Shown piece after piece: positions 6,394-51,304 of a DNA stretch of 51,874 bases (the first letter of the stretch is position 1; each line of letters opens with the position of its first letter). A model generated the notes under the pieces. That model saw only the letters and a list, made by a program, of their open reading frames with translations. It did not search any database and was not told the DNA's origin. The translations under genes were made by a program, and so were the position numbers. The stretch comes from a phage. Location: the sequence record PZ386979.1; one strand, written 5' to 3'.

Positions 6394-7368
6394 ATGGAAA
6401 AAGAAAAATTTGATCAGCTAGATGCGGATATTGTTTCTAGCCATCTGGCTACTCGCGGCGTTAAGGGTGATGCTTCTGATATGGGTATCTGGACGGCGCA
6501 AGAGCTTCACAAGATCCGCTCAACTGCTTACGAGAAAGAGTATCCGGCAGGTTCAGCGCTTCGTGTGTTCCCTGTAACTAATGAGCTTTCTGATACTGAT
6601 AAGACTTTTGAATATCAGATGTTTGACAAGGTTGGTTACGCAAAAATTATCGCTGATTACACCGACGATCTGCCAACTGTTGACGCTTTAATGTCAAGCG
6701 AGTTTGGCAAGGTGTTCCGCCTGGGTAACGCGTTCTTGATCTCCATTGACGAAATCAAGGCTGGTCAGCGCACTGGTAAGAGCCTTTCCACTCGCAAGGC
6801 AAACGCAGCGCAAAACGCTCATGATCAGGAAGTTAACCGCCTGGTGTTTAAGGGTTCAAAGCCGCATAAGATTATTTCGGTGTTTGAACACCCTAACCTG
6901 ACAAAGATCGTGTCAACTGGATGGTTGAGCAACGATGAGAACACCAAGTTCCCCGAGACGGCTTCGGACGATCTTGAAAAGGCGATCGAAACCATCGAGA
7001 AGATCACGAATGGTCAGCACCGCGCAACCAATATCCTGATCCCGCCGTCAATGCGCAAGGTTCTTTCCGTTCGAATGGAAAACACCACTGAAAGTTATCT
7101 GGAATACTTCCAGAAACAAAACAGCGGAATCACCATCGACTCAATCGCAGAGCTTGAGGATATTGATGGCACTGGAACGAAAGGTTGCCTGGTATATGAG
7201 AAAGACCCGATGAACATGTCGATCGAAATTCCAGAAGCATTTAACATGCTTCCTGCGCAACCAAAAGATCTGCATTTCAAAGTTCCGTGTACTTCAAAAT
7301 GTACTGGCCTGACGATTTACCGTCCGTTTACGCTAGTTCTTATTACTGGCTTGAAAAAATCAGGTTAA
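6394..7368 (+). CDS. major capsid protein (putative)
   Basis: 324 aa; strong RBS GGAGGAAGAAA; followed by strong rho-independent terminator at 7381..7411; position in head module. Confidence 0.55.
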   Translation: MEKEKFDQLDADIVSSHLATRGVKGDASDMGIWTAQELHKIRSTAYEKEYPAGSALRVFPVTNELSDTDKTFEYQMFDKVGYAKIIADYTDDLPTVDALMSSEFGKVFRLGNAFLISIDEIKAGQRTGKSLSTRKANAAQNAHDQEVNRLVFKGSKPHKIISVFEHPNLTKIVSTGWLSNDENTKFPETASDDLEKAIETIEKITNGQHRATNILIPPSMRKVLSVRMENTTESYLEYFQKQNSGITIDSIAELEDIDGTGTKGCLVYEKDPMNMSIEIPEAFNMLPAQPKDLHFKVPCTSKCTGLTIYRPFTLVLITGLKKSG

Positions 7369-7380
7369 TCGTATAACATT

Positions 7381-7411
7381 GGGGAATCCTTAACTGGATT
7401 CCCTTTTTTTA
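7381..7411 (+). terminator. rho-independent terminator after capsid gene
   Basis: GGGGAATCC-ttaact-GGATTCCC followed by TTTTTTT. Confidence 0.7.
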
Positions 7412-7425
7412 TTGGAGGTTATGAA

Positions 7426-7698
7426 ATGGCTAAAGAAAAAACTGTAACGCTAAAGGTTTCCGGCGTGTGCCTTATCATTGTTGATGGTGAGCATTATCAT
7501 CCAGGCAAAGAGTTTGACGTAGAAGAATCAAAATTGAAAACAAGCGCGTTTGAATATCTAATTGCAAAAGGCGATCTGGAGGTTAAAGACAACTCCGCAT
7601 TGAACGAAGAAATCAAACAGAGCGCAGCAAGCAAACGTAAAAAAGATCCGCGAGAGGGCAAGAGCAAAGCCGAACTTGAAGACGGCGGCATCTATTAA
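7426..7698 (+). CDS. hypothetical protein (head module)
   Basis: 90 aa; RBS GGAGG; flanked by hairpins. Confidence 0.45.
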
Positions 7699-7745
7699 TA
7701 AAGAGGGCGCTTATAGCGCCCTTTGTCATATCTGGAGGAAACACA

Positions 7746-8162
7746 ATGGTTGATGAATTTTTCACTGACGCAGAAATCACGCAGCAAATCGTGAAATTAG
7801 CGCCACCGATGAAACAGATTGATCCAGATTTAATGGTGGCATGGATTGATCTGGCAAAGGAATTTGTTTGCAAGAAGCGGTTTAAAGAATCATATCCTAA
7901 AGCGGTTGCTCTTTATACGTTGCACCTTATGACGCTTGACGGAGCTATGAAGCAAGAGGGGGAAAGCGTAGAGAGTTACTCACGGCGCGTGGCGTCATTT
8001 TCCCTGACTGGTGAATTTAGCCAGACATTTGATCGCGTGTCCGGCGATTCAAGCGGAAAAGAGATCAGGCAAACCCCGTGGGGTAAAATGTATGAGACGT
8101 TAAATAGAAAAAAAGGCGGTGGATTTGGCCTTGTGACTGGATTTCGGAGGCGCTGCAAATGA
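7746..8162 (+). CDS. head-tail connector protein (putative)
   Basis: 138 aa; RBS GGAGGAAACACA; position between capsid and tail genes. Confidence 0.4.
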
Positions 8163-8530
8163 ACTATAACGAGATCGCAAGAATGGCAACCGAAGGAATT
8201 AACTTCTTTAGTGATAGCGACGGTGAGTTTAAGTGCATAACGCAGCGTGGAAGCGTTGAAATCATCGGAGGCGAAGAAGTAGAAAAGCCAGAGATTAGTG
8301 TAATGATTAAGGGTTTAATTAGATCACCCAAAGTCCGAGAGGTTGACGGCGAGACAATACGAGTAACCGATAAGTTGGGAGTTTTTAACAATAAAGTTGA
8401 AATTAAGAACGGGTATCATATTGATGTTGATGGTGAATTATATGTTGTAGTTGAAGCAAGACCAATCAGACAAACCAATGTCACAGTTGCTTATCGGCCT
8501 ATTTTGAGAAGGATTTCCGTGCATGGCTAA
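8159..8530 (+). CDS. head-tail joining protein (putative)
   Basis: 123 aa; start overlaps upstream stop (ATGA). Confidence 0.4.
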
Positions 8531-33411: not shown

Positions 33412-33423
33412 GGAGAATTTTTG

Positions 33424-34554
33424 ATGAAGCAAATCAAAATCACAGATGAACAATTTATCAATGAGCGCAAGCAGGGAAAGACATATAAGCAGATCGCTAG
33501 TGAGTATGGCATGAACGTTCGCAGCATTGAGCGACGCGCGGCACGATTAGCAAAGCAAGGTAAAGTTACAACCATCGGATCACCTGGTTTTGGTGTTACT
33601 GGAGAATCAAAGCTAATTGATAAAGATGGCAATGTGGTTATGACATGGATTAAGACAAGCAAAGACCGCGAACAGTTAGAAGCATTAATGCAGGCCGCTA
33701 TGGATGCATTTAGCGAAGAAGTTCCTCGACTTGATCCACAGCCAGAATCACAAAAGGATTATAGCGAGACGCTATCACTGTATCCGATCTTTGACATGCA
33801 CTTGGGCGCAATGGCGCATAAGCATGAATGCGGCGAGAATTGGGATACAGCAACAGCAGAGCGCGTAATGAATAATTTCATTGATTATTCCATCCAGTGC
33901 GCACCTGATAGTGAGAATGCTGTTTTGCTGATTGGCGGTGATATGCTTCACAGTGACGGACTGGAAGCGGTAACACCTGCAAGCGGTCACGTATTGGATC
34001 AAGATAGTCGATACGCAAAACTTGTTTATGTTGCCATCCGGTCAGTGCGTCGAGCAATTACAAAGCTGTTATCAAAACACAAAAACGTCGAGATTCAGAT
34101 CATTGAAGGCAACCACGACCAAAGCGGCATGATCTGGTTGCGCGCAGCAATGGCGGCAGCATATGAGAATGAGCCACGAGTGCATGTTGATGTGTCTCCG
34201 CGAGTAGTTCATCACACACAATATGGCAAAACGTTCCTGGCATACCATCACGGGCATACTATCCGCAAACCTGAAACATTGCTAATGATGTGCGCGGCAG
34301 ACTGGCGCGAAGACTTCGGAAATTCAAAAATGATGTATGCTCACGTAGGGCACTGGCATCATCAAACAGTAACTGAAACAAGCCTGGGCATTGTTGAAGT
34401 GCATAGCACTATGGCGGCAAAAGATGCATATGCTGCGCGCGGTGGATGGCGTTCTCGTCGCCGTGCGGCTGTTATTGTTTATGATAAAGAATACGGAGAA
34501 GTAGGGCGATTTATGCATTATCCAGAAATGGCCGATCGAACTTTTAATTATTAA
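33424..34554 (+). CDS. metallophosphoesterase (calcineurin-like) with N-terminal HTH domain
   Basis: Phosphoesterase motifs DMH, GGDMLH, GNHD, HHGH, GHWH; N-terminal GKTYKQIASEYGMNVRSIERR helix-turn-helix; AAGGAG RBS; terminator follows. Confidence 0.65.
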   Translation: MKQIKITDEQFINERKQGKTYKQIASEYGMNVRSIERRAARLAKQGKVTTIGSPGFGVTGESKLIDKDGNVVMTWIKTSKDREQLEALMQAAMDAFSEEVPRLDPQPESQKDYSETLSLYPIFDMHLGAMAHKHECGENWDTATAERVMNNFIDYSIQCAPDSENAVLLIGGDMLHSDGLEAVTPASGHVLDQDSRYAKLVYVAIRSVRRAITKLLSKHKNVEIQIIEGNHDQSGMIWLRAAMAAAYENEPRVHVDVSPRVVHHTQYGKTFLAYHHGHTIRKPETLLMMCAADWREDFGNSKMMYAHVGHWHHQTVTETSLGIVEVHSTMAAKDAYAARGGWRSRRRAAVIVYDKEYGEVGRFMHYPEMADRTFNY

Positions 34555-44944: not shown

Positions 44945-44983
44945 CACTTTTTGTTAAAACTCAAATGTGGGGCCAGGTATAAT
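44941..44983 (+). promoter_or_regulatory. conserved element plus -10
   Basis: Element contains TAG of 44792..44944; 17-nt spacer; TATAAT inside GGCC...GGCC inverted repeat. Confidence 0.55.
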
Positions 44984-45013
44984 GGCCTCACTTTCAACGA
45001 AGGAGATAAAACG

Positions 45014-45232
45014 ATGTACATTAAAAAGAAGATGAAATGCGTTTCCGTTAACTATGCTTGCTCTGGCATGTTCAAGCCTGGCGAAATCTATACGGCGCAA
45101 AAACTGAAATCATCAACCGGATCCTTTTACGTGAGCAATAGTAAGGGGCATCGCATGTTCCTGAACGGCGGCGAAGGCACTAAGGTTATGGCACACGCTA
45201 TGGTAATGGCTGAATTTGAGGAGGTGAAATAA
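45014..45232 (+). CDS. hypothetical protein (tandem paralog 1)
   Basis: 72 aa; start ATG 45014 behind AAGGAG RBS; paralog of 45232..45477 (F.LNG..GT...A...V.AEFE). Confidence 0.45.
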   Translation: MYIKKKMKCVSVNYACSGMFKPGEIYTAQKLKSSTGSFYVSNSKGHRMFLNGGEGTKVMAHAMVMAEFEEVK

Positions 45233-45477
45233 TGATCATTGAAAACAACTTTCTTTGCGTTAAGAGCAATCGACCATTCTTCACGCCTGGCAAGGTGTAC
45301 CAGGGCAAGAAGGACACAAGAGATGGTCACTCTTATCATGTTCACTGCAACAACGGATACAAGTTTTACCTTAACGGTAATAATGGAACTGAGATTGTTG
45401 CGTTTGAAAACGTAATTGCCGAGTTCGAGCAGATTACAGACGCGGAATTTGAGGAAGTGAAAGATGAAAACAAATAA
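45232..45477 (+). CDS. hypothetical protein (tandem paralog 2)
   Basis: 81 aa; shares PG..Y...K...G.S.Y/H... FYLNGNNGTEIVAFENVIAEFE with upstream gene. Confidence 0.45.
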   Translation: MIIENNFLCVKSNRPFFTPGKVYQGKKDTRDGHSYHVHCNNGYKFYLNGNNGTEIVAFENVIAEFEQITDAEFEEVKDENK

Positions 45478-45696: not shown

Positions 45697-46410
45697 ATGA
45701 AAAAATACACTTTCGAACTGTGGGGCAAGAAGTACGAATTAATCACCAGCAAGCCGATTGTTATCGTTGACCTGGACGGCACGCTATCGGACGGATCGCA
45801 TCGTTTGCATTTGCTGCCAACTGAAAACTTGCACCTTACGGAATCGTGGCGCGAGTTTAACAGGGCCGCCTCCGGAGATTCACCGATTAAAAGCACTATC
45901 GCGGTTATTAACGGTTTATGGGTGTCGGGATTTGCCATCGTCATCCTGACCGGACGCAGCGACGAGGTTCGCTATGAAACCTGCAAATGGTTGAATGAGA
46001 ACGGCGTGAAGTTTGACGAAATCATCATGCGCCGCCAGGAGGACAACCGAAAGGATACTGTTATTAAAGAAGAAGCCTTGCGCGCTATTGGCCTGGACAA
46101 CATTGTTTGCGCCTTTGACGATTCGCCGAGCGTGGTTAAGCACTTCCGCAGCTTGGGGATCACAACCTATCAGGTCACGGAATACGACAAGCCACACGCT
46201 CACATACAATCTCACGGCGTGGAATCAATAAAGATCACGAAGCGCGCCCGATTCGTCGGCAGCAAAGACAGCCTGGTCAATGCCAGCTTTATCAAAGGCA
46301 AGGTTTATGATGTTCATAGCCATGATAAAAACCGATTCTTTTTGTGGGATGAAAAAGGTTTTGGCTGGTGCTTTGAACACGACGACGGCGATTTTGTTAA
46401 CGCGGAGTAA
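45697..46410 (+). CDS. HAD-superfamily phosphatase (polynucleotide 3'-phosphatase/nucleotidase-like)
   Basis: 237 aa; HAD motif I DLDGTLSDG near N-terminus. Confidence 0.55.
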   Translation: MKKYTFELWGKKYELITSKPIVIVDLDGTLSDGSHRLHLLPTENLHLTESWREFNRAASGDSPIKSTIAVINGLWVSGFAIVILTGRSDEVRYETCKWLNENGVKFDEIIMRRQEDNRKDTVIKEEALRAIGLDNIVCAFDDSPSVVKHFRSLGITTYQVTEYDKPHAHIQSHGVESIKITKRARFVGSKDSLVNASFIKGKVYDVHSHDKNRFFLWDEKGFGWCFEHDDGDFVNAE

Positions 46411-46416
46411 TTATAA

Positions 46417-46608
46417 ATGGCTGACTTTATGCATCAAATGATTGTTGTATTTAAGGGCAGTGAAGATGAAGAGGTTCGCGAATGCTTCACCATTGAGAAA
46501 TCATACAGCGCATCTTTAACCAGTTTTGGCAACATATCTATGATTGATGATAATGGCGATCCGTGGATTTTTGAAGATGATACGGATTGCTTTGAGATTA
46601 AAGAATAG
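46417..46608 (+). CDS. hypothetical small acidic protein
   Basis: 63 aa; highly acidic; stop TAG inside conserved element. Confidence 0.45.
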   Translation: MADFMHQMIVVFKGSEDEEVRECFTIEKSYSASLTSFGNISMIDDNGDPWIFEDDTDCFEIKE

Positions 46609-46648
46609 CACTTTTTGCAAAAACAGATTATCGGGCTTGCGGTATAGT
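46605..46648 (+). promoter_or_regulatory. conserved element (ATAGCACTTTTTGCAAAAAC) plus -10 TATAGT
   Basis: Contains stop TAG; spacer/-10 within inverted repeat GGGCTT...AAGCCC. Confidence 0.5.
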
Positions 46649-46679
46649 AAGCCCATCAACAACAAACGAGGATTAAATC

Positions 46680-46943
46680 ATGGCTAACAAGATCGAGTTT
46701 TTTAAAGCGGTAGACATTATCGACGGCGCGCCTAGCTTCTTTGCTATCCATTCTATTGACGGCAAGGATATTGGGTACAACGTTATCCGTCGAGATGGAA
46801 TATCAAAACTTAGTGACCTGGTAGGCCATATTGTGTCAATCGGGAAATGCGCATGGCCCGATTCGCCACGAGAGCCGCGCCGCCGCGACATGGTAGAGCC
46901 TGTTCTGCTTTACACTCTGGTAGTAGAAGGAGAAAATAAATGA
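46680..46943 (+). CDS. hypothetical protein
   Basis: 87 aa; GAGGA RBS; downstream of conserved element and -10. Confidence 0.45.
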   Translation: MANKIEFFKAVDIIDGAPSFFAIHSIDGKDIGYNVIRRDGISKLSDLVGHIVSIGKCAWPDSPREPRRRDMVEPVLLYTLVVEGENK

Positions 46944-47140
46944 TTTGGTTACTTGCTTTTTTGGTTGTTTTTCTTTACATTTCAGGATTATTCACGTTCC
47001 GCGCGTTGGTGAAAACATGCGATTGCACGGATAAAGATCAGCCTCTTGTTCTGATGTTCTGGTTTGTGTGGTTTTGGGTTGTGTGGTTTTGGGTTGCGCT
47101 TTATCAGATTGTACGGGATAAAAGCGGATTCAAGTGGTGA
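46940..47140 (+). CDS. small membrane protein (Trp/Phe-rich TMD)
   Basis: 66 aa; two hydrophobic helices; contains perfect 15-bp tandem duplication encoding VWFWVVWFWV. Confidence 0.45.
   Translation: MIWLLAFLVVFLYISGLFTFRALVKTCDCTDKDQPLVLMFWFVWFWVVWFWVALYQIVRDKSGFKW
47066..47095 (+). repeat. perfect 15-bp tandem duplication (GTGTGGTTTTGGGTT x2) inside membrane protein gene
   Basis: Two adjacent identical 15-mers, in frame, encoding VWFWV VWFWV. Confidence 0.8.
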
Positions 47141-47334
47141 TTCTTACTATAGCGCATTCACGCAGTGCGCTATGTTGAGATAACAACATGAGATCATGAA
47201 GATGCGAAACTTCGAAAAAATCGTATCCAAAAAGAAGCGATACAGCTACCACGAGCACCAAGAGATGAATCAACGCTATCGCAATAAGCGCCAGCGCAAA
47301 GGTAAACATTCCGGTAAACATGGAGAAAATCAAT

Positions 47335-47925
47335 ATGAAACGAGACATTATCATCCTTAACGGACCGCCAGGAGTTGGCAAAGATACGCTTGCCGCATAC
47401 TTAACGGGCCATCGTTACGCAGCGGTTAAAGCGTCGTTTAAACAGCCGATGTTTGATATTGCATTCTCCATGCTTGGCGTTTACAGATATGACGAGTTCA
47501 TTGATCTGTATAACGACCGCGAGCAGAAAGAAAAGCCTCAAGCAATCTTGCAAGGCAAGTCTCCGCGACAATTCATGATTTGGATTAGTGAAGAAGTCAT
47601 GAAGCCAGCTTTTGGCGAGCAATATTTTGGGAATCGCATGGTTGAGCAGGTACACGAGATGTACAGAGATTTAGCTGTTGTAATTAGTGATGGAGGATTC
47701 CCTGAAGAAATCAAGCCGCTCGTTAAGGCAGGCCATGAAGTTCACATTTGCCGACTGCATCGCGAAGGATTCACGTTTGATGGCGATTCGCGAAACTATA
47801 TTGACCTGAGCGGATACCATCACCGAGTCAAGCATTACGACTTCACAATGATTGATGGCGAGCCAGAAAAGACTGTTGACGAGATCATCAAAACGGTGCA
47901 GTGGAAACACATTAAGATCAAATAG
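47335..47925 (+). CDS. P-loop nucleotide kinase (dNMP kinase / polynucleotide kinase-like)
   Basis: Start ATG 47335 behind GGAGAAAA RBS; Walker A GPPGVGKDT resembles the GxxxSGKDT loop of phage dNMP kinases. Confidence 0.6.
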   Translation: MKRDIIILNGPPGVGKDTLAAYLTGHRYAAVKASFKQPMFDIAFSMLGVYRYDEFIDLYNDREQKEKPQAILQGKSPRQFMIWISEEVMKPAFGEQYFGNRMVEQVHEMYRDLAVVISDGGFPEEIKPLVKAGHEVHICRLHREGFTFDGDSRNYIDLSGYHHRVKHYDFTMIDGEPEKTVDEIIKTVQWKHIKIK

Positions 47926-51273: not shown

Positions 51274-51280
51274 CCAACTA

Positions 51281-51304
51281 CCCGCCAAATGGCGGGTTTT
51301 TTAT
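51281..51304 (+). terminator. rho-independent terminator before terS
   Basis: CCCGCC-aaat-GGCGGG followed by TTTTTT. Confidence 0.7.

What the first reader, a model, noticed from the sequence alone, without database searches (positions are those of the whole stretch)
45697..47925. HAD phosphatase and P-loop kinase encoded separately in the early region
45697..46410 has the HAD motif DLDGTL and 47335..47925 a kinase P-loop GPPGVGKDT. Together they resemble the two halves of T4-type polynucleotide kinase-phosphatase (end healing) or a dNMP kinase plus nucleotidase pair; they are separated by three small ORFs.
Basis: inference. Interest (0 to 1): 0.45.

Follow-up and report, generated by a model that had tools for sequence, protein, structure and literature searches.

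The report
Phage 3'-phosphatase plus dNMP kinase pair
A T1-like coliphage carries a stand-alone phosphatase related to one half of the T4 end-healing enzyme and a separate nucleotide kinase related to T4's dNMP kinase; the pair is a conserved, already annotated phage nucleotide/DNA-metabolism module and not a split RNA-repair enzyme.

Summary
Both genes are real. The window is a complete T1-like phage genome (Drexlerviridae, Hanrivervirus).

- **Phosphatase, 45697-46410.** It is a HAD phosphatase of the Pnkp-phosphatase family. All catalytic residues are kept and its best structural match is the T4 Pnkp 3'-phosphatase domain. It has no kinase domain, so the database name 'polynucleotide kinase' is a misnomer.
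- **Spacing.** Four small ORFs lie between the two genes, not three.
- **No ligase** homologue was found in the window.
- **Linkage.** The genes are functionally linked. In 67 of 80 related viral loci the phosphatase lies upstream of the kinase on the same strand. It is often directly adjacent, behind an HTH-metallophosphoesterase nuclease. Natural phosphatase-kinase fusion proteins also exist.

Most likely the pair is a DNA-breakdown and dNTP-supply module. The split-Pnkp reading is right for only one half.

Relatives already carry these annotations, and a 2026 paper notes the gene pair. The finding is of low novelty. The phosphatase's real substrate is untested.

The parts
45697..46410 (+). 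Stand-alone Pnkp-type HAD (DxDxT) phosphatase, 237 aa. It comprises an N-terminal beta-hairpin, the HAD core (residues 1-175) and an extra C-terminal beta-rich domain (residues about 176-237).
   Evidence: - Family matches: Pfam PF25109 HAD_PNKP E 6.8e-21; phrog_415 E 2.9e-66.
- PDB sequence hits are to the phosphatase domains of Pnkp1 (4xrp) and T4 Pnkp (1ltq, 5uj0) only.
- AF2 model: mean pLDDT 76.5. The core and the C-terminal domain are confident; the cap (residues 28-59) is not.
- Foldseek top hits are 5uj0, 4xrp and 2ia5.
- No P-loop or kinase domain was detected.
45769..45786 (+). HAD motif I, DLDGTL (D25 nucleophile, D27 general acid-base).
   Evidence: - Seen directly in the translation.
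- D25, D27, G28, T29 and L30 are invariant in 28 homologues.
- They correspond to T4 Pnkp D165 and D167.
46224..46603 (+). A 380-bp variable cassette. It encodes the C-terminal 62-aa domain of the HAD protein plus a free-standing 63-aa paralogue of that domain (ORF 46417-46608). It replaces an unrelated 166-bp segment found in Fulano1 and JK16.
   Evidence: - blastn shows a break in homology at 46223/46604.
- Both the long (236-237 aa) and short (about 179 aa) HAD forms are common.
- A profile of the C-terminal domain finds ORF 46417-46608 at E 2.6e-7 among 723 window ORFs.
- Fulano1 gp74, at the same position, is unrelated.
46680..46943 (+). Small ORF, 87 aa, function unknown. It is the second of the four intervening ORFs.
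   Evidence: Weak matches to phrog_25318 and phrog_12951. It corresponds to the annotated gp75 of Fulano1.
46940..47140 (+). Small ORF, 66 aa, hydrophobic and Cys-containing, probably a membrane protein.
   Evidence: phrog_9755 E 4.2e-24. The JLBYU09 record lists a 'putative FeoB-associated Cys-rich membrane protein' among the features under the matched 3.5-kb region; whether that name belongs to this ORF was not checked.
47196..47360 (+). Small basic ORF, 54 aa, overlapping the start of the kinase gene.
   Evidence: phrog_8176 E 1.7e-5. There is a sub-threshold Pfam hit to T7 protein 1.1 (E 0.028).
47335..47925 (+). T4 gp1-type deoxynucleoside monophosphate kinase, 196 aa. The P-loop GPPGVGKDT lies at 47362-47388.
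   Evidence: - phrog_139 E 2e-50. T4 gp1 itself matches the same PHROG family at E 1.8e-65.
- AF2 model: mean pLDDT 92.8.
- Foldseek top hit is 1DEK (E 1.6e-6, TM 0.69).
- hhalign against gp1 aligns 176-179 columns at probability 94-95.5%.
33421..34554 (+). HTH-metallophosphoesterase ('DNA repair exonuclease'), 377 aa. In other phage lineages it is the third member of the module; in this genome it is displaced about 11 kb away, next to the lysis genes.
   Evidence: - phrog_704 E 6.4e-151. Weak Pfam matches to HTH and Metallophos.
- It lies directly upstream of HAD and the kinase in about 27 IMG/VR loci and in phage K1H, and in Erwinia phage Tapenade.
- A 43%-identical homologue follows the HAD-kinase fusion gene in L096.

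Best explanation
The two genes encode separate enzymes of one conserved phage module that supports DNA metabolism and dNTP supply. They are not a split Pnkp.

**Kinase.** The kinase is a T4 gp1-type dNMP kinase. It transfers the gamma-phosphate of ATP to 5'-dNMPs to make dNDPs. This speeds the reuse of deoxynucleotides released from degraded DNA in a phage that has no annotated DNA polymerase, ligase or nucleotide reductase of its own.

**Phosphatase.** The HAD protein is a Mg-dependent aspartyl-phosphate (DxDxT) phosphomonoesterase of the Pnkp-phosphatase family. D25 attacks the phosphate, D27 acts as general acid-base, T85 and K124 hold the phosphate, and D142 holds the metal. By analogy with T4 Pnkp, its substrates are 3'-phosphates on DNA ends or on deoxynucleotides (3'-dNMP, pdNp). 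Removing them clears blocked ends and yields molecules that nucleases, polymerases and the kinase can use.

**Module.** The pair belongs ancestrally to a three-gene unit: HTH-metallophosphoesterase nuclease, then HAD, then kinase. In this phage the nuclease sits elsewhere, and four small accessory ORFs have been inserted between HAD and kinase.

**Shown versus inferred.** Shown here: family membership, conserved catalytic residues, fold, synteny and gene fusion. Inferred: the substrates, the direction of flux and the link to breakdown of host DNA.
For: **HAD identity**
- Pfam HAD_PNKP E 6.8e-21.
- Top fold matches are the T4 Pnkp phosphatase domain (5uj0) and Pnkp1.
- The T4 residues D165, D167, S211, K258 and D278 (roles given in PMC3592404) align with D25, D27, T85, K124 and D142. 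Four are invariant in the 28-sequence alignment and T85 is nearly invariant (at least 90%).
- T4 Pnkp phosphatase hydrolyses 3'-dTMP at 24 per second but does not hydrolyse 3'-rNMPs.

**Kinase identity**
- It falls in the same PHROG family as T4 gp1.
- Homology to gp1 spans the full length.
- The gp1 dNMP-phosphate ligands R68 and R132, the base ligands D175 and E181, and the ATP ligand R197 (table in PMC10653934) align with the invariant residues R62, R78, D119, E125 and R140.
- A gp1-like dNMPK from a P. putida genomic island supplies thymidylate kinase activity in vivo.

**Coupling of the two genes**
- HAD lies upstream of the kinase on the same strand in 67 of 80 viral loci. In 31 of these the gap is 150 nt or less.
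- The two genes overlap in Webervirus and Kagunavirus.
- The order nuclease, HAD, kinase recurs in Guernseyvirinae, in Autographiviridae and in some Drexlerviridae.
- Natural HAD-kinase fusion proteins exist: P0257 and P0263, 37% identical to each other, one of them next to the nuclease homologue.

**Link to nucleotide metabolism**
- In Krischvirus GEC-3S, a 48%-identical stand-alone HAD overlaps the end of nrdB, while a full pseT and rnlA are also present in the same genome.
- A 2026 paper notes PNK plus dNMP kinase downstream of the exonuclease in Drexlerviridae and proposes a role in nucleotide supply.
Against: - No member of the stand-alone HAD family or of this kinase clade has been assayed, as far as the literature searches show.
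- Metallophosphoesterase nucleases normally leave 3'-OH and 5'-phosphate ends (general knowledge). The source of 3'-phosphate substrates is therefore unclear.
- The cap region of the HAD protein, which sets substrate specificity, is invariant in the family but modelled with pLDDT below 50.
- Two of the four gp1 dNMP-phosphate ligands are not conserved: K37 aligns with F40 and R177 with G121.
- The kinase does not reach Pfam's DNMK model.
- 13 of 80 kinase loci have no HAD within the fetched flank of up to 6 kb, so the coupling is not obligatory.
- A phosphatase-kinase fusion, the Zn-ribbon, wHTH and Cys-rich accessory domains, and adjacency to DNA ligase in some phages would fit a DNA-end-healing role equally well.
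Confidence: 0.55

Rival explanations
1. Non-orthologous Pnkp analogue for healing DNA ends. The HAD protein removes 3'-phosphates and the gp1-fold kinase has been recruited to phosphorylate 5'-OH DNA ends. Together with the Mre11-like nuclease they prepare broken phage DNA for sealing, by host LigA here or by a phage DNA ligase in other lineages.
For: - The HAD half is a true Pnkp-type phosphatase.
- Phosphatase-kinase fusion proteins exist, in the same domain order as mammalian PNKP (the PNKP domain order is from general knowledge).
- All three module components occur with nucleic-acid-binding add-ons: an HTH on the nuclease, Zn-ribbons on HAD variants, and wHTH or Cys-rich extensions on kinase variants.
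- In Erwinia phage Tapenade the order is nuclease, HAD, kinase, DNA ligase. In Xanthomonas phage Elanor a HAD protein directly precedes a DNA ligase.
Against: - The kinase aligns with T4 Pnk only over the P-loop.
- No counterpart of the essential acceptor-site residues Asp35 and Arg38 of T4 Pnk (PMC2831316) is aligned.
- The gp1 residues that bind the phosphate of a dNMP acceptor (R68, R132) are invariant in this family.
- In Autographiviridae all DNA-metabolism genes are clustered, so adjacency to ligase carries little weight.
Confidence: 0.12
2. Pool-shaping pair acting only on mononucleotides. The HAD protein is a 5'(3')-deoxynucleotidase that removes particular (d)NMPs, for example unwanted or non-canonical ones. 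The kinase pushes the remaining dNMPs towards dNTPs. Together they form a substrate cycle or filter and do not process DNA ends.
For: - There is a secondary Pfam match to class B acid phosphatases, which are nucleotidases (Acid_phosphat_B, E 4.3e-10).
- The T4 enzyme itself hydrolyses 3'-dNMPs.
- The stand-alone HAD lies in the td-nrdA-nrdB operon of GEC-3S, and a HAD fusion lies beside thyX in Pbunavirus.
- Fusion with a dNMP kinase suits sequential or opposing action on a small molecule.
Against: - The best family and fold matches are to the polynucleotide-end phosphatase, not to nucleotidases.
- Variants with a Zn-ribbon or an extra domain at the C-terminus suggest targeting to a macromolecule.
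- No specificity residues could be read from the low-confidence cap.
Confidence: 0.15
3. RNA (tRNA) end healing against anticodon-nuclease defences, as in T4 PseT plus Rnl1.
For: [quoted passage not shown]
Against: - There is no polynucleotide kinase domain.
- No Rnl1 or ATP-dependent ligase homologue was found in the window, and none is annotated in the near-identical Fulano1 genome.
- Krischvirus GEC-3S keeps a complete pseT and rnlA in addition to the stand-alone HAD, so the stand-alone HAD is not a substitute for them.
- A lone 3'-phosphatase would destroy the 3'-phosphate or cyclic-phosphate ends that the host ligase RtcB needs (general knowledge).
Confidence: 0.04
4. The two genes are unrelated neighbours in a mosaic region of small accessory genes, with independent functions.
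For: - In this window they are separated by four ORFs and by a swapped cassette.
- 13 of 80 kinase loci lack a HAD gene nearby.
Against: - Order and strand are conserved in 67 of 80 loci across several phage families.
- The genes have overlapping stop and start codons in some lineages.
- Gene fusions exist.
Confidence: 0.05

Closest known systems
T4 polynucleotide kinase-phosphatase (PseT/Pnkp), C-terminal 3'-phosphatase domain (PDB 1LTQ, 2IA5, 5UJ0; Pfam PF25109)
   Same: - Same DxDxT acylphosphatase fold.
- All catalytic residues are shared: D165, D167, S211, K258, D277 and D278 correspond to D25, D27, T85, K124, D141 and D142.
- It is the best sequence and fold match.
   Different: - The window protein is stand-alone, with no N-terminal 5'-kinase domain.
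- It has a cap insert about 14 residues longer, with its own invariant motif (HRLHLLPT...LTESW.EFN).
- It has an N-terminal beta-hairpin and, in this phage, an extra 62-aa C-terminal domain.
- It has no RNA ligase partner.
- It co-occurs with a full Pnkp in Krischvirus.
T4 gp1 deoxynucleoside monophosphate kinase (PDB 1DEK; PHROG 139; Pfam PF21448)
   Same: - Same PHROG family.
- Full-length hhalign match.
- Shared features include the GKDT P-loop and an xP(I/M)xD motif; gp1 R68 in the YDRE motif, R132, D175, E181 and R197 align with invariant residues of this family.
   Different: - Only about 15-17% identity, and 45 residues shorter (it lacks a 36-residue insert in the helical domain).
- It does not reach the Pfam DNMK model.
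- K37 and R177 of gp1 are not conserved.
- Substrate range is unknown.
Mammalian PNKP (FHA-phosphatase-kinase) and bacterial Pnkp1 of the Pnkp1-Rnl-Hen1 complex (PDB 4XRP)
   Same: - They have a HAD-type 3'-phosphatase combined with a P-loop kinase.
- The phosphatase-then-kinase order resembles the gene order here and the fusion proteins P0257 and P0263.
- Pnkp1 is the best PDB hit by sequence.
   Different: Their kinase domains are polynucleotide 5'-kinases of the Pnk type, whereas the kinase here is of the gp1 dNMP-kinase type. They work together with ligases, and none is present here.
The 'polynucleotide kinase' and 'dNMP kinase' genes annotated in T1-like phages (T1, JK16, Fulano1, KanT1, Sfin-1 and others)
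   Same: - They are orthologues, up to about 99% identical in protein sequence.
- They have the same order and the same neighbourhood.
- The pair and its nucleotide-supply interpretation are already mentioned in PMC13164509.
   Different: This phage has the long HAD form with the extra C-terminal domain, plus a duplicated free copy of that domain. Fulano1 and JK16 have the short form.
P. putida KT2440 PP_1964 (dNMPK encoded on a genomic island)
   Same: It is a gp1-like dNMP kinase of mobile-element origin, shown genetically to supply thymidylate kinase activity.
   Different: Its direct relationship to this clade was not tested here. It is a bacterial chromosomal gene with no HAD partner reported.

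Membership tests
HAD superfamily, Pnkp-type 3'-phosphatase (Pfam PF25109 HAD_PNKP) | Motif I DxDxT (nucleophile Asp and general acid-base Asp) | tested here: met
   D25-L-D27-G-T29 at nt 45769-45783. It is invariant in 28 homologues and aligns with T4 D165 and D167.
HAD superfamily, Pnkp-type 3'-phosphatase (Pfam PF25109 HAD_PNKP) | Motif II Ser/Thr, motif III Lys and motif IV acidic pair (T4 S211, K258, D277/D278) | tested here: met
   T85, K124 and D141/D142 align with these residues. K124, D141 and D142 are invariant and T85 is at least 90% conserved. R87 (T4 R213) and R36 (probably T4 R176, by my own alignment) are also invariant.
HAD superfamily, Pnkp-type 3'-phosphatase (Pfam PF25109 HAD_PNKP) | Score above the curated family threshold, and fold match to a solved member | tested here: met
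   75.3 bits against a cut-off of 27.6. The Foldseek top hit is 5uj0 (E 3.7e-7, TM 0.69 normalised on the target).
HAD superfamily, Pnkp-type 3'-phosphatase (Pfam PF25109 HAD_PNKP) | 3'-phosphomonoesterase activity on DNA or RNA ends or on 3'-dNMP | not testable with these tools
   This needs an enzyme assay.
Bifunctional Pnkp end-healing enzyme (T4 PseT type) | A P-loop polynucleotide 5'-kinase domain in the same polypeptide | tested here: not met
   The HAD protein has only about 20 residues before motif I. It has no P-loop and no AAA_33 match, whereas T4 Pnkp matches AAA_33 at E 5e-23.
Bifunctional Pnkp end-healing enzyme (T4 PseT type) | The separately encoded kinase is homologous to the Pnk kinase domain (acceptor-site Asp35 and Arg38) | tested here: not met
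Bifunctional Pnkp end-healing enzyme (T4 PseT type) | A partner ligase for sealing (Rnl1/Rnl2) | tested here: not met
   No tblastn or phmmer hit to T4 Rnl1 or to two phage ATP-dependent DNA ligases in the window. None is annotated in Fulano1. Rnl2 was not queried.
Phage dNMP kinase (T4 gp1; PHROG 139) | Membership of the same profile family as gp1, with the P-loop ending in GKDT | tested here: met
   Window kinase matches phrog_139 at E 2e-50 (profile positions 81-264). T4 gp1 matches phrog_139 at E 1.8e-65 (positions 83-261). GVGKDT aligns with SGKDT.
Phage dNMP kinase (T4 gp1; PHROG 139) | Full-length homology and the same fold as 1DEK | tested here: met
Phage dNMP kinase (T4 gp1; PHROG 139) | Pfam DNMK (PF21448) gathering threshold | tested here: not met
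   No PF21448 hit at E up to 0.1 for the window kinase. T4 gp1 scores 357.9 bits.
Phage dNMP kinase (T4 gp1; PHROG 139) | Conservation of the gp1 dNMP-phosphate ligands (K37, R68, R132, R177) | tested here: inconclusive
   R68 aligns with R62 and R132 with R78, both invariant. K37 aligns with F40 and R177 with G121, so these two are not conserved. The invariant K36 and the nearly invariant R143 might compensate.
Phage dNMP kinase (T4 gp1; PHROG 139) | ATP:dNMP phosphotransferase activity | not testable with these tools
   This needs an enzyme assay or tmk complementation.

The most novel reading that the evidence does not exclude
The Pnkp-type HAD phosphatase, the gp1-fold kinase and the HTH-metallophosphoesterase nuclease together form a previously unrecognised, mobile DNA-end-processing machine. 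It would be a non-orthologous analogue of PNKP in which a dNMP-kinase-fold enzyme phosphorylates 5'-OH DNA ends. It is sometimes fused into one phosphatase-kinase polypeptide, and phages would use it to repair or exploit breaks with 'dirty' ends, for example breaks made by host defence nucleases.
Probability: 0.1. Interest if true: 0.6.

Novelty: already known. Interest (0 to 1): 0.22.

Why it matters
For this window the result is mostly a correction of labels.
- The gene that databases call 'polynucleotide kinase' in hundreds of T1-like phages is a phosphatase only.
- The neighbouring 'ATP-binding protein' is a gp1-type dNMP kinase.
- The pair should therefore not be read as an RNA-repair or anti-anticodon-nuclease system.

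The wider point is modest but testable. A three-gene module (nuclease, 3'-phosphatase, dNMP kinase) recurs across at least three phage lineages and is sometimes fused, yet the phosphatase's substrate is unknown. Defining it would show how small phages without polymerase or reductase genes turn DNA breakdown products into precursors. Alternatively, it would show that they carry a new kind of DNA-end-healing enzyme.

Tried and rejected
- **Sequence-only PDB searches with the kinase.** A single sequence and a 33-sequence profile found only generic P-loop matches. Fold comparison and a broader profile were needed.
- **hmmalign of T4 gp1 to the narrow family HMM.** It aligned only the P-loop. This was replaced by hhalign with a 126-sequence profile.
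- **Promoter and terminator scan.** It showed no enrichment over shuffled sequence and does not define transcription units.
- **Literature searches.** Searches for experimental work on the stand-alone HAD or on this kinase clade in T1-like phages found only genome descriptions. The retron Eco2 paper hit was only a reagent mention.
- **Search for the fusion genes in IMG/VR.** Nothing was found. They were located instead by exact-protein look-up.
- **Search for more nrdB-HAD arrangements.** Using the GEC-3S protein as query returned only two near-identical loci.
- **Idea that the short-form phages encode the HAD C-terminal domain as a separate gene.** Rejected, because Fulano1 gp74 is unrelated.
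- **PDB sequence search for the nuclease.** No hit.
- **C-terminal domain of the HAD protein.** No Pfam match and only weak PHROG matches.


Full report
**What the window is.** The 51.9-kb window is essentially a whole T1-like phage genome.
- Its first 25 kb are 99.2% identical to Escherichia phage vB_EcoD_Fulano1 (Drexlerviridae, Tempevirinae, Hanrivervirus).
- The region of the finding matches 132 phage records at 80-99% identity.
- Fulano1's annotation lists primase, helicases, recombination proteins, methylases, a 'phosphoesterase' and lysis genes. It lists no DNA polymerase, no ligase and no nucleotide reductase.

**The observation.**
- The HAD ORF runs from ATG 45697 to the stop at 46410 (237 aa). 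DLDGTL is residues 25-30.
- The kinase ORF runs from ATG 47335, which has GGAG 9 nt upstream, to 47925 (196 aa). GPPGVGKDT is residues 10-18.
- Profile matches put both far beyond chance: Pfam HAD_PNKP E 6.8e-21, phrog_415 E 2.9e-66 and phrog_139 E 2e-50.
- Four ORFs lie between them, not three: 63, 87, 66 and 54 aa. All four have PHROG matches, and four genes are annotated at this position in Fulano1. The first of those, gp74, is unrelated to the window's 63-aa ORF.
- Whether the block is 'early' could not be checked. It is a long run of tightly packed + strand genes, and the consensus scans were not informative.

**The phosphatase.**
- *PDB by sequence.* The protein matches only the phosphatase parts of Pnkp1 (4xrp) and T4 Pnkp (1ltq, 5uj0).
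- *Catalytic residues.* The alignment places T4 S211, R213, D254, K258 and D277/D278 on T85, R87, D120, K124 and D141/D142. Motif I (T4 D165 and D167) falls on D25 and D27. All are invariant or nearly invariant in 28 homologues. The roles of these T4 residues are nucleophile, general acid-base, phosphate contacts and Mg ligand, as given in PMC3592404.
- *Model.* The AlphaFold model has mean pLDDT 76.5. The core is confident, the cap (residues 28-59) is not, and the C-terminal domain is confident.
- *Fold search.* The best matches are the T4 Pnkp phosphatase domain (E 3.7e-7, TM 0.69 on the target), followed by Pnkp1 and further T4 Pnkp entries.
- *No kinase domain.* Only about 20 residues precede motif I and there is no P-loop. 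The common database names 'polynucleotide kinase' and '3'-phosphatase, 5'-polynucleotide kinase' therefore overstate what the gene encodes.

**A variable C-terminus.**
- The homology between this window and Fulano1 or JK16 breaks at 46223/46604. A 380-bp segment here replaces an unrelated 166 bp there.
- The segment adds a 62-aa beta-rich domain to the HAD protein (pLDDT about 90). It also adds a free-standing 63-aa ORF that is a paralogue of that domain (profile E 2.6e-7 among 723 window ORFs).
- Long and short HAD forms are both common. Other homologues carry a small Cys-rich, Zn-ribbon-like tail at the same place.
- The added domain has no Pfam match and only weak PHROG matches.

**The kinase.**
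- *Sequence searches of the PDB* saw only the P-loop.
- *The model* is confident (pLDDT 92.8).
- *PHROG family.* T4 gp1 falls in the same PHROG family (E 1.8e-65). The window kinase does not reach Pfam's DNMK model.
- *Broader profile.* With a profile of 126 representatives taken from a library-wide search, hhalign aligns the family with gp1 over 176-179 columns at probability 94-95.5%. The same profile aligns with the T4 Pnk kinase domain only over 29 P-loop columns.
- *Ligand residues conserved.* The gp1 dNMP-phosphate ligands R68 and R132, the base ligands D175 and E181, and the ATP ligand R197 (listed in PMC10653934) fall on the invariant residues R62, R78, D119, E125 and R140.
- *Ligand residues not conserved.* K37 and R177 are not conserved.
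- *Acceptor site.* The T4 Pnk acceptor-site residues Asp35 and Arg38 (PMC2831316) have no aligned counterpart.
- *Conclusion.* I conclude that the kinase's acceptor is a nucleoside 5'-monophosphate. This is an inference from homology, not a measurement.

**Are the two genes linked?** Yes.
- *Loci survey.* Among 80 IMG/VR loci chosen only for holding a kinase homologue, 67 have a HAD homologue upstream on the same strand. In 31 of these the gap is 150 nt or less.
- *Nuclease partner.* About 27 loci show the order nuclease, HAD, kinase. The nuclease is the homologue of window ORF 33421-34554, an HTH-metallophosphoesterase (phrog_704 'DNA repair exonuclease').
- *Other lineages, tight or overlapping junctions.* The trio occurs in Kagunavirus K1H (Guernseyvirinae) inside the tail gene block, and the pair in Webervirus.
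- *Other lineages, followed by a ligase.* The trio also occurs in Erwinia phage Tapenade (Autographiviridae), where a DNA ligase follows.
- *Fusions found.* The library-wide search turned up natural fusions with HAD_PNKP at the N-terminus and the kinase at the C-terminus: P0257 (403 aa) and P0263 (461 aa).
- *Fusions look genuine.* The two are 37% identical over both domains and share a linker motif. P0257 occurs on three contigs. On the 60.8-kb one it is followed by a 43%-identical homologue of the nuclease.
- *This window.* The module is loosened here. The nuclease sits 11 kb away beside the lysis genes, and four small ORFs separate HAD from the kinase.
- *Prior note.* A 2026 paper on phage KanT1 already notes 'PNK' and dNMP kinase downstream of the exonuclease in Drexlerviridae and suggests a role in nucleotide supply.

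**What the module does.**
- *Against RNA repair.* There is no polynucleotide kinase and no detectable Rnl1 or ATP-dependent ligase. The T4-like phage GEC-3S keeps a complete pseT and rnlA and in addition carries a stand-alone HAD 48% identical to this one. That HAD overlaps the end of nrdB in the td-nrdA-nrdB operon.
- *For nucleotide and DNA metabolism.* A PB1-like phage has a HAD-containing protein beside thyX. T4 Pnkp phosphatase hydrolyses 3'-dTMP at 24 per second but not 3'-rNMPs. A gp1-like kinase supplies thymidylate kinase activity in P. putida.
- *Proposal.* The kinase feeds 5'-dNMPs from DNA breakdown into the dNDP and dNTP pool. The HAD enzyme removes 3'-phosphates from DNA ends or deoxynucleotides so that they can be processed further.
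- *Confidence.* About 0.55. The substrates are untested and the origin of 3'-phosphates is unclear.
- *Main rival.* A DNA-end-healing role is not excluded. It is suggested by the fusion architecture, by the nucleic-acid-binding add-ons on all three components and by adjacency to DNA ligase in some phages. I put it at about 0.1-0.15.

**Novelty and verdict.**
- Orthologues up to about 99% identical are deposited and annotated in many phage genomes, and the pairing has been remarked on in print.
- The finding is real but ordinary.
- Its useful content is threefold. The split-Pnkp and tRNA-repair reading is wrong for the kinase half. The 'polynucleotide kinase' label is a misnomer. And the nuclease-phosphatase-kinase module, with its occasional fusion, is a conserved unit whose phosphatase substrate remains to be determined.

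Noticed in passing
L096 6001-7212 (P0257) and L097 498-1883 (P0263): Natural single-polypeptide fusions of a Pnkp-type HAD phosphatase (N-terminal) with a gp1-like dNMP kinase (C-terminal). The two are 37% identical to each other and share a linker motif. In L096 the next gene (7340-8500) is a 43%-identical homologue of the window's HTH-metallophosphoesterase nuclease.
   Followed up: partly
L088 4998-5474 (Krischvirus GEC-3S, NC_025425): A T4-like phage carries a stand-alone HAD phosphatase 48% identical to the window's. It overlaps the end of nrdB in the td-nrdA-nrdB operon. The phage also has a full-length pseT and rnlA a few kb away.
   Followed up: partly
window 46224-46608, also 45232-45477 and 44951-45232: A small beta-rich domain of about 60 aa recurs in this region. 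It is fused to the HAD C-terminus and occurs again as the next ORF (E 2.6e-7). There is a weak resemblance (E 0.006) to ORF 45232-45477; that ORF and 44951-45232 both match phrog_9122. Its function is unknown and it could not be fold-searched alone.
   Followed up: partly
window 47196-47360: A 54-aa, very basic ORF overlaps the kinase start. It has a sub-threshold Pfam match to T7 protein 1.1 (E 0.028, 15.3 bits against a cut-off of 21) and matches phrog_8176.
   Followed up: no
window 46940-47140: A 66-aa hydrophobic, Cys-containing ORF (phrog_9755), probably a small membrane protein, sits between two nucleotide-metabolism genes. The JLBYU09 record lists a 'FeoB-associated Cys-rich membrane protein' somewhere in the matched region.
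   Followed up: no
window 33421-34554: The 'DNA repair exonuclease/phosphoesterase' has an N-terminal HTH and only a weak Metallophos match (E 0.03). It has no PDB relative by sequence. It is annotated as 'putative oxidoreductase' in Erwinia phage Tapenade, which looks like a mis-annotation.
   Followed up: partly
P0382, P0287 (kinase homologues from the library search): Some kinase homologues carry N-terminal extensions of 100-170 residues, with a winged-HTH match (P0382) or many cysteines (P0287). This hints at nucleic-acid binding or regulation.
   Followed up: no
L092 3679-4632 and L093 2974-3870: In Erwinia phage Tapenade the order is nuclease, HAD, kinase, ATP-dependent DNA ligase. In Xanthomonas phage Elanor a 255-aa HAD protein directly precedes a DNA ligase.
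   Followed up: no
L043-L050, L019, L029, L078, L081, L082, L084: Thirteen of the 80 viral loci with a kinase homologue have no HAD homologue within the fetched flank of up to 6 kb (shorter in a few loci). What replaces it upstream was not examined.
   Followed up: no
window 51280-51297: The strongest intrinsic-terminator-like hairpin on the + strand in the scanned 9 kb (7 pairs, 6 of them G-C, followed by a T-run). It lies at the end of the long run of + strand small genes.
   Followed up: no
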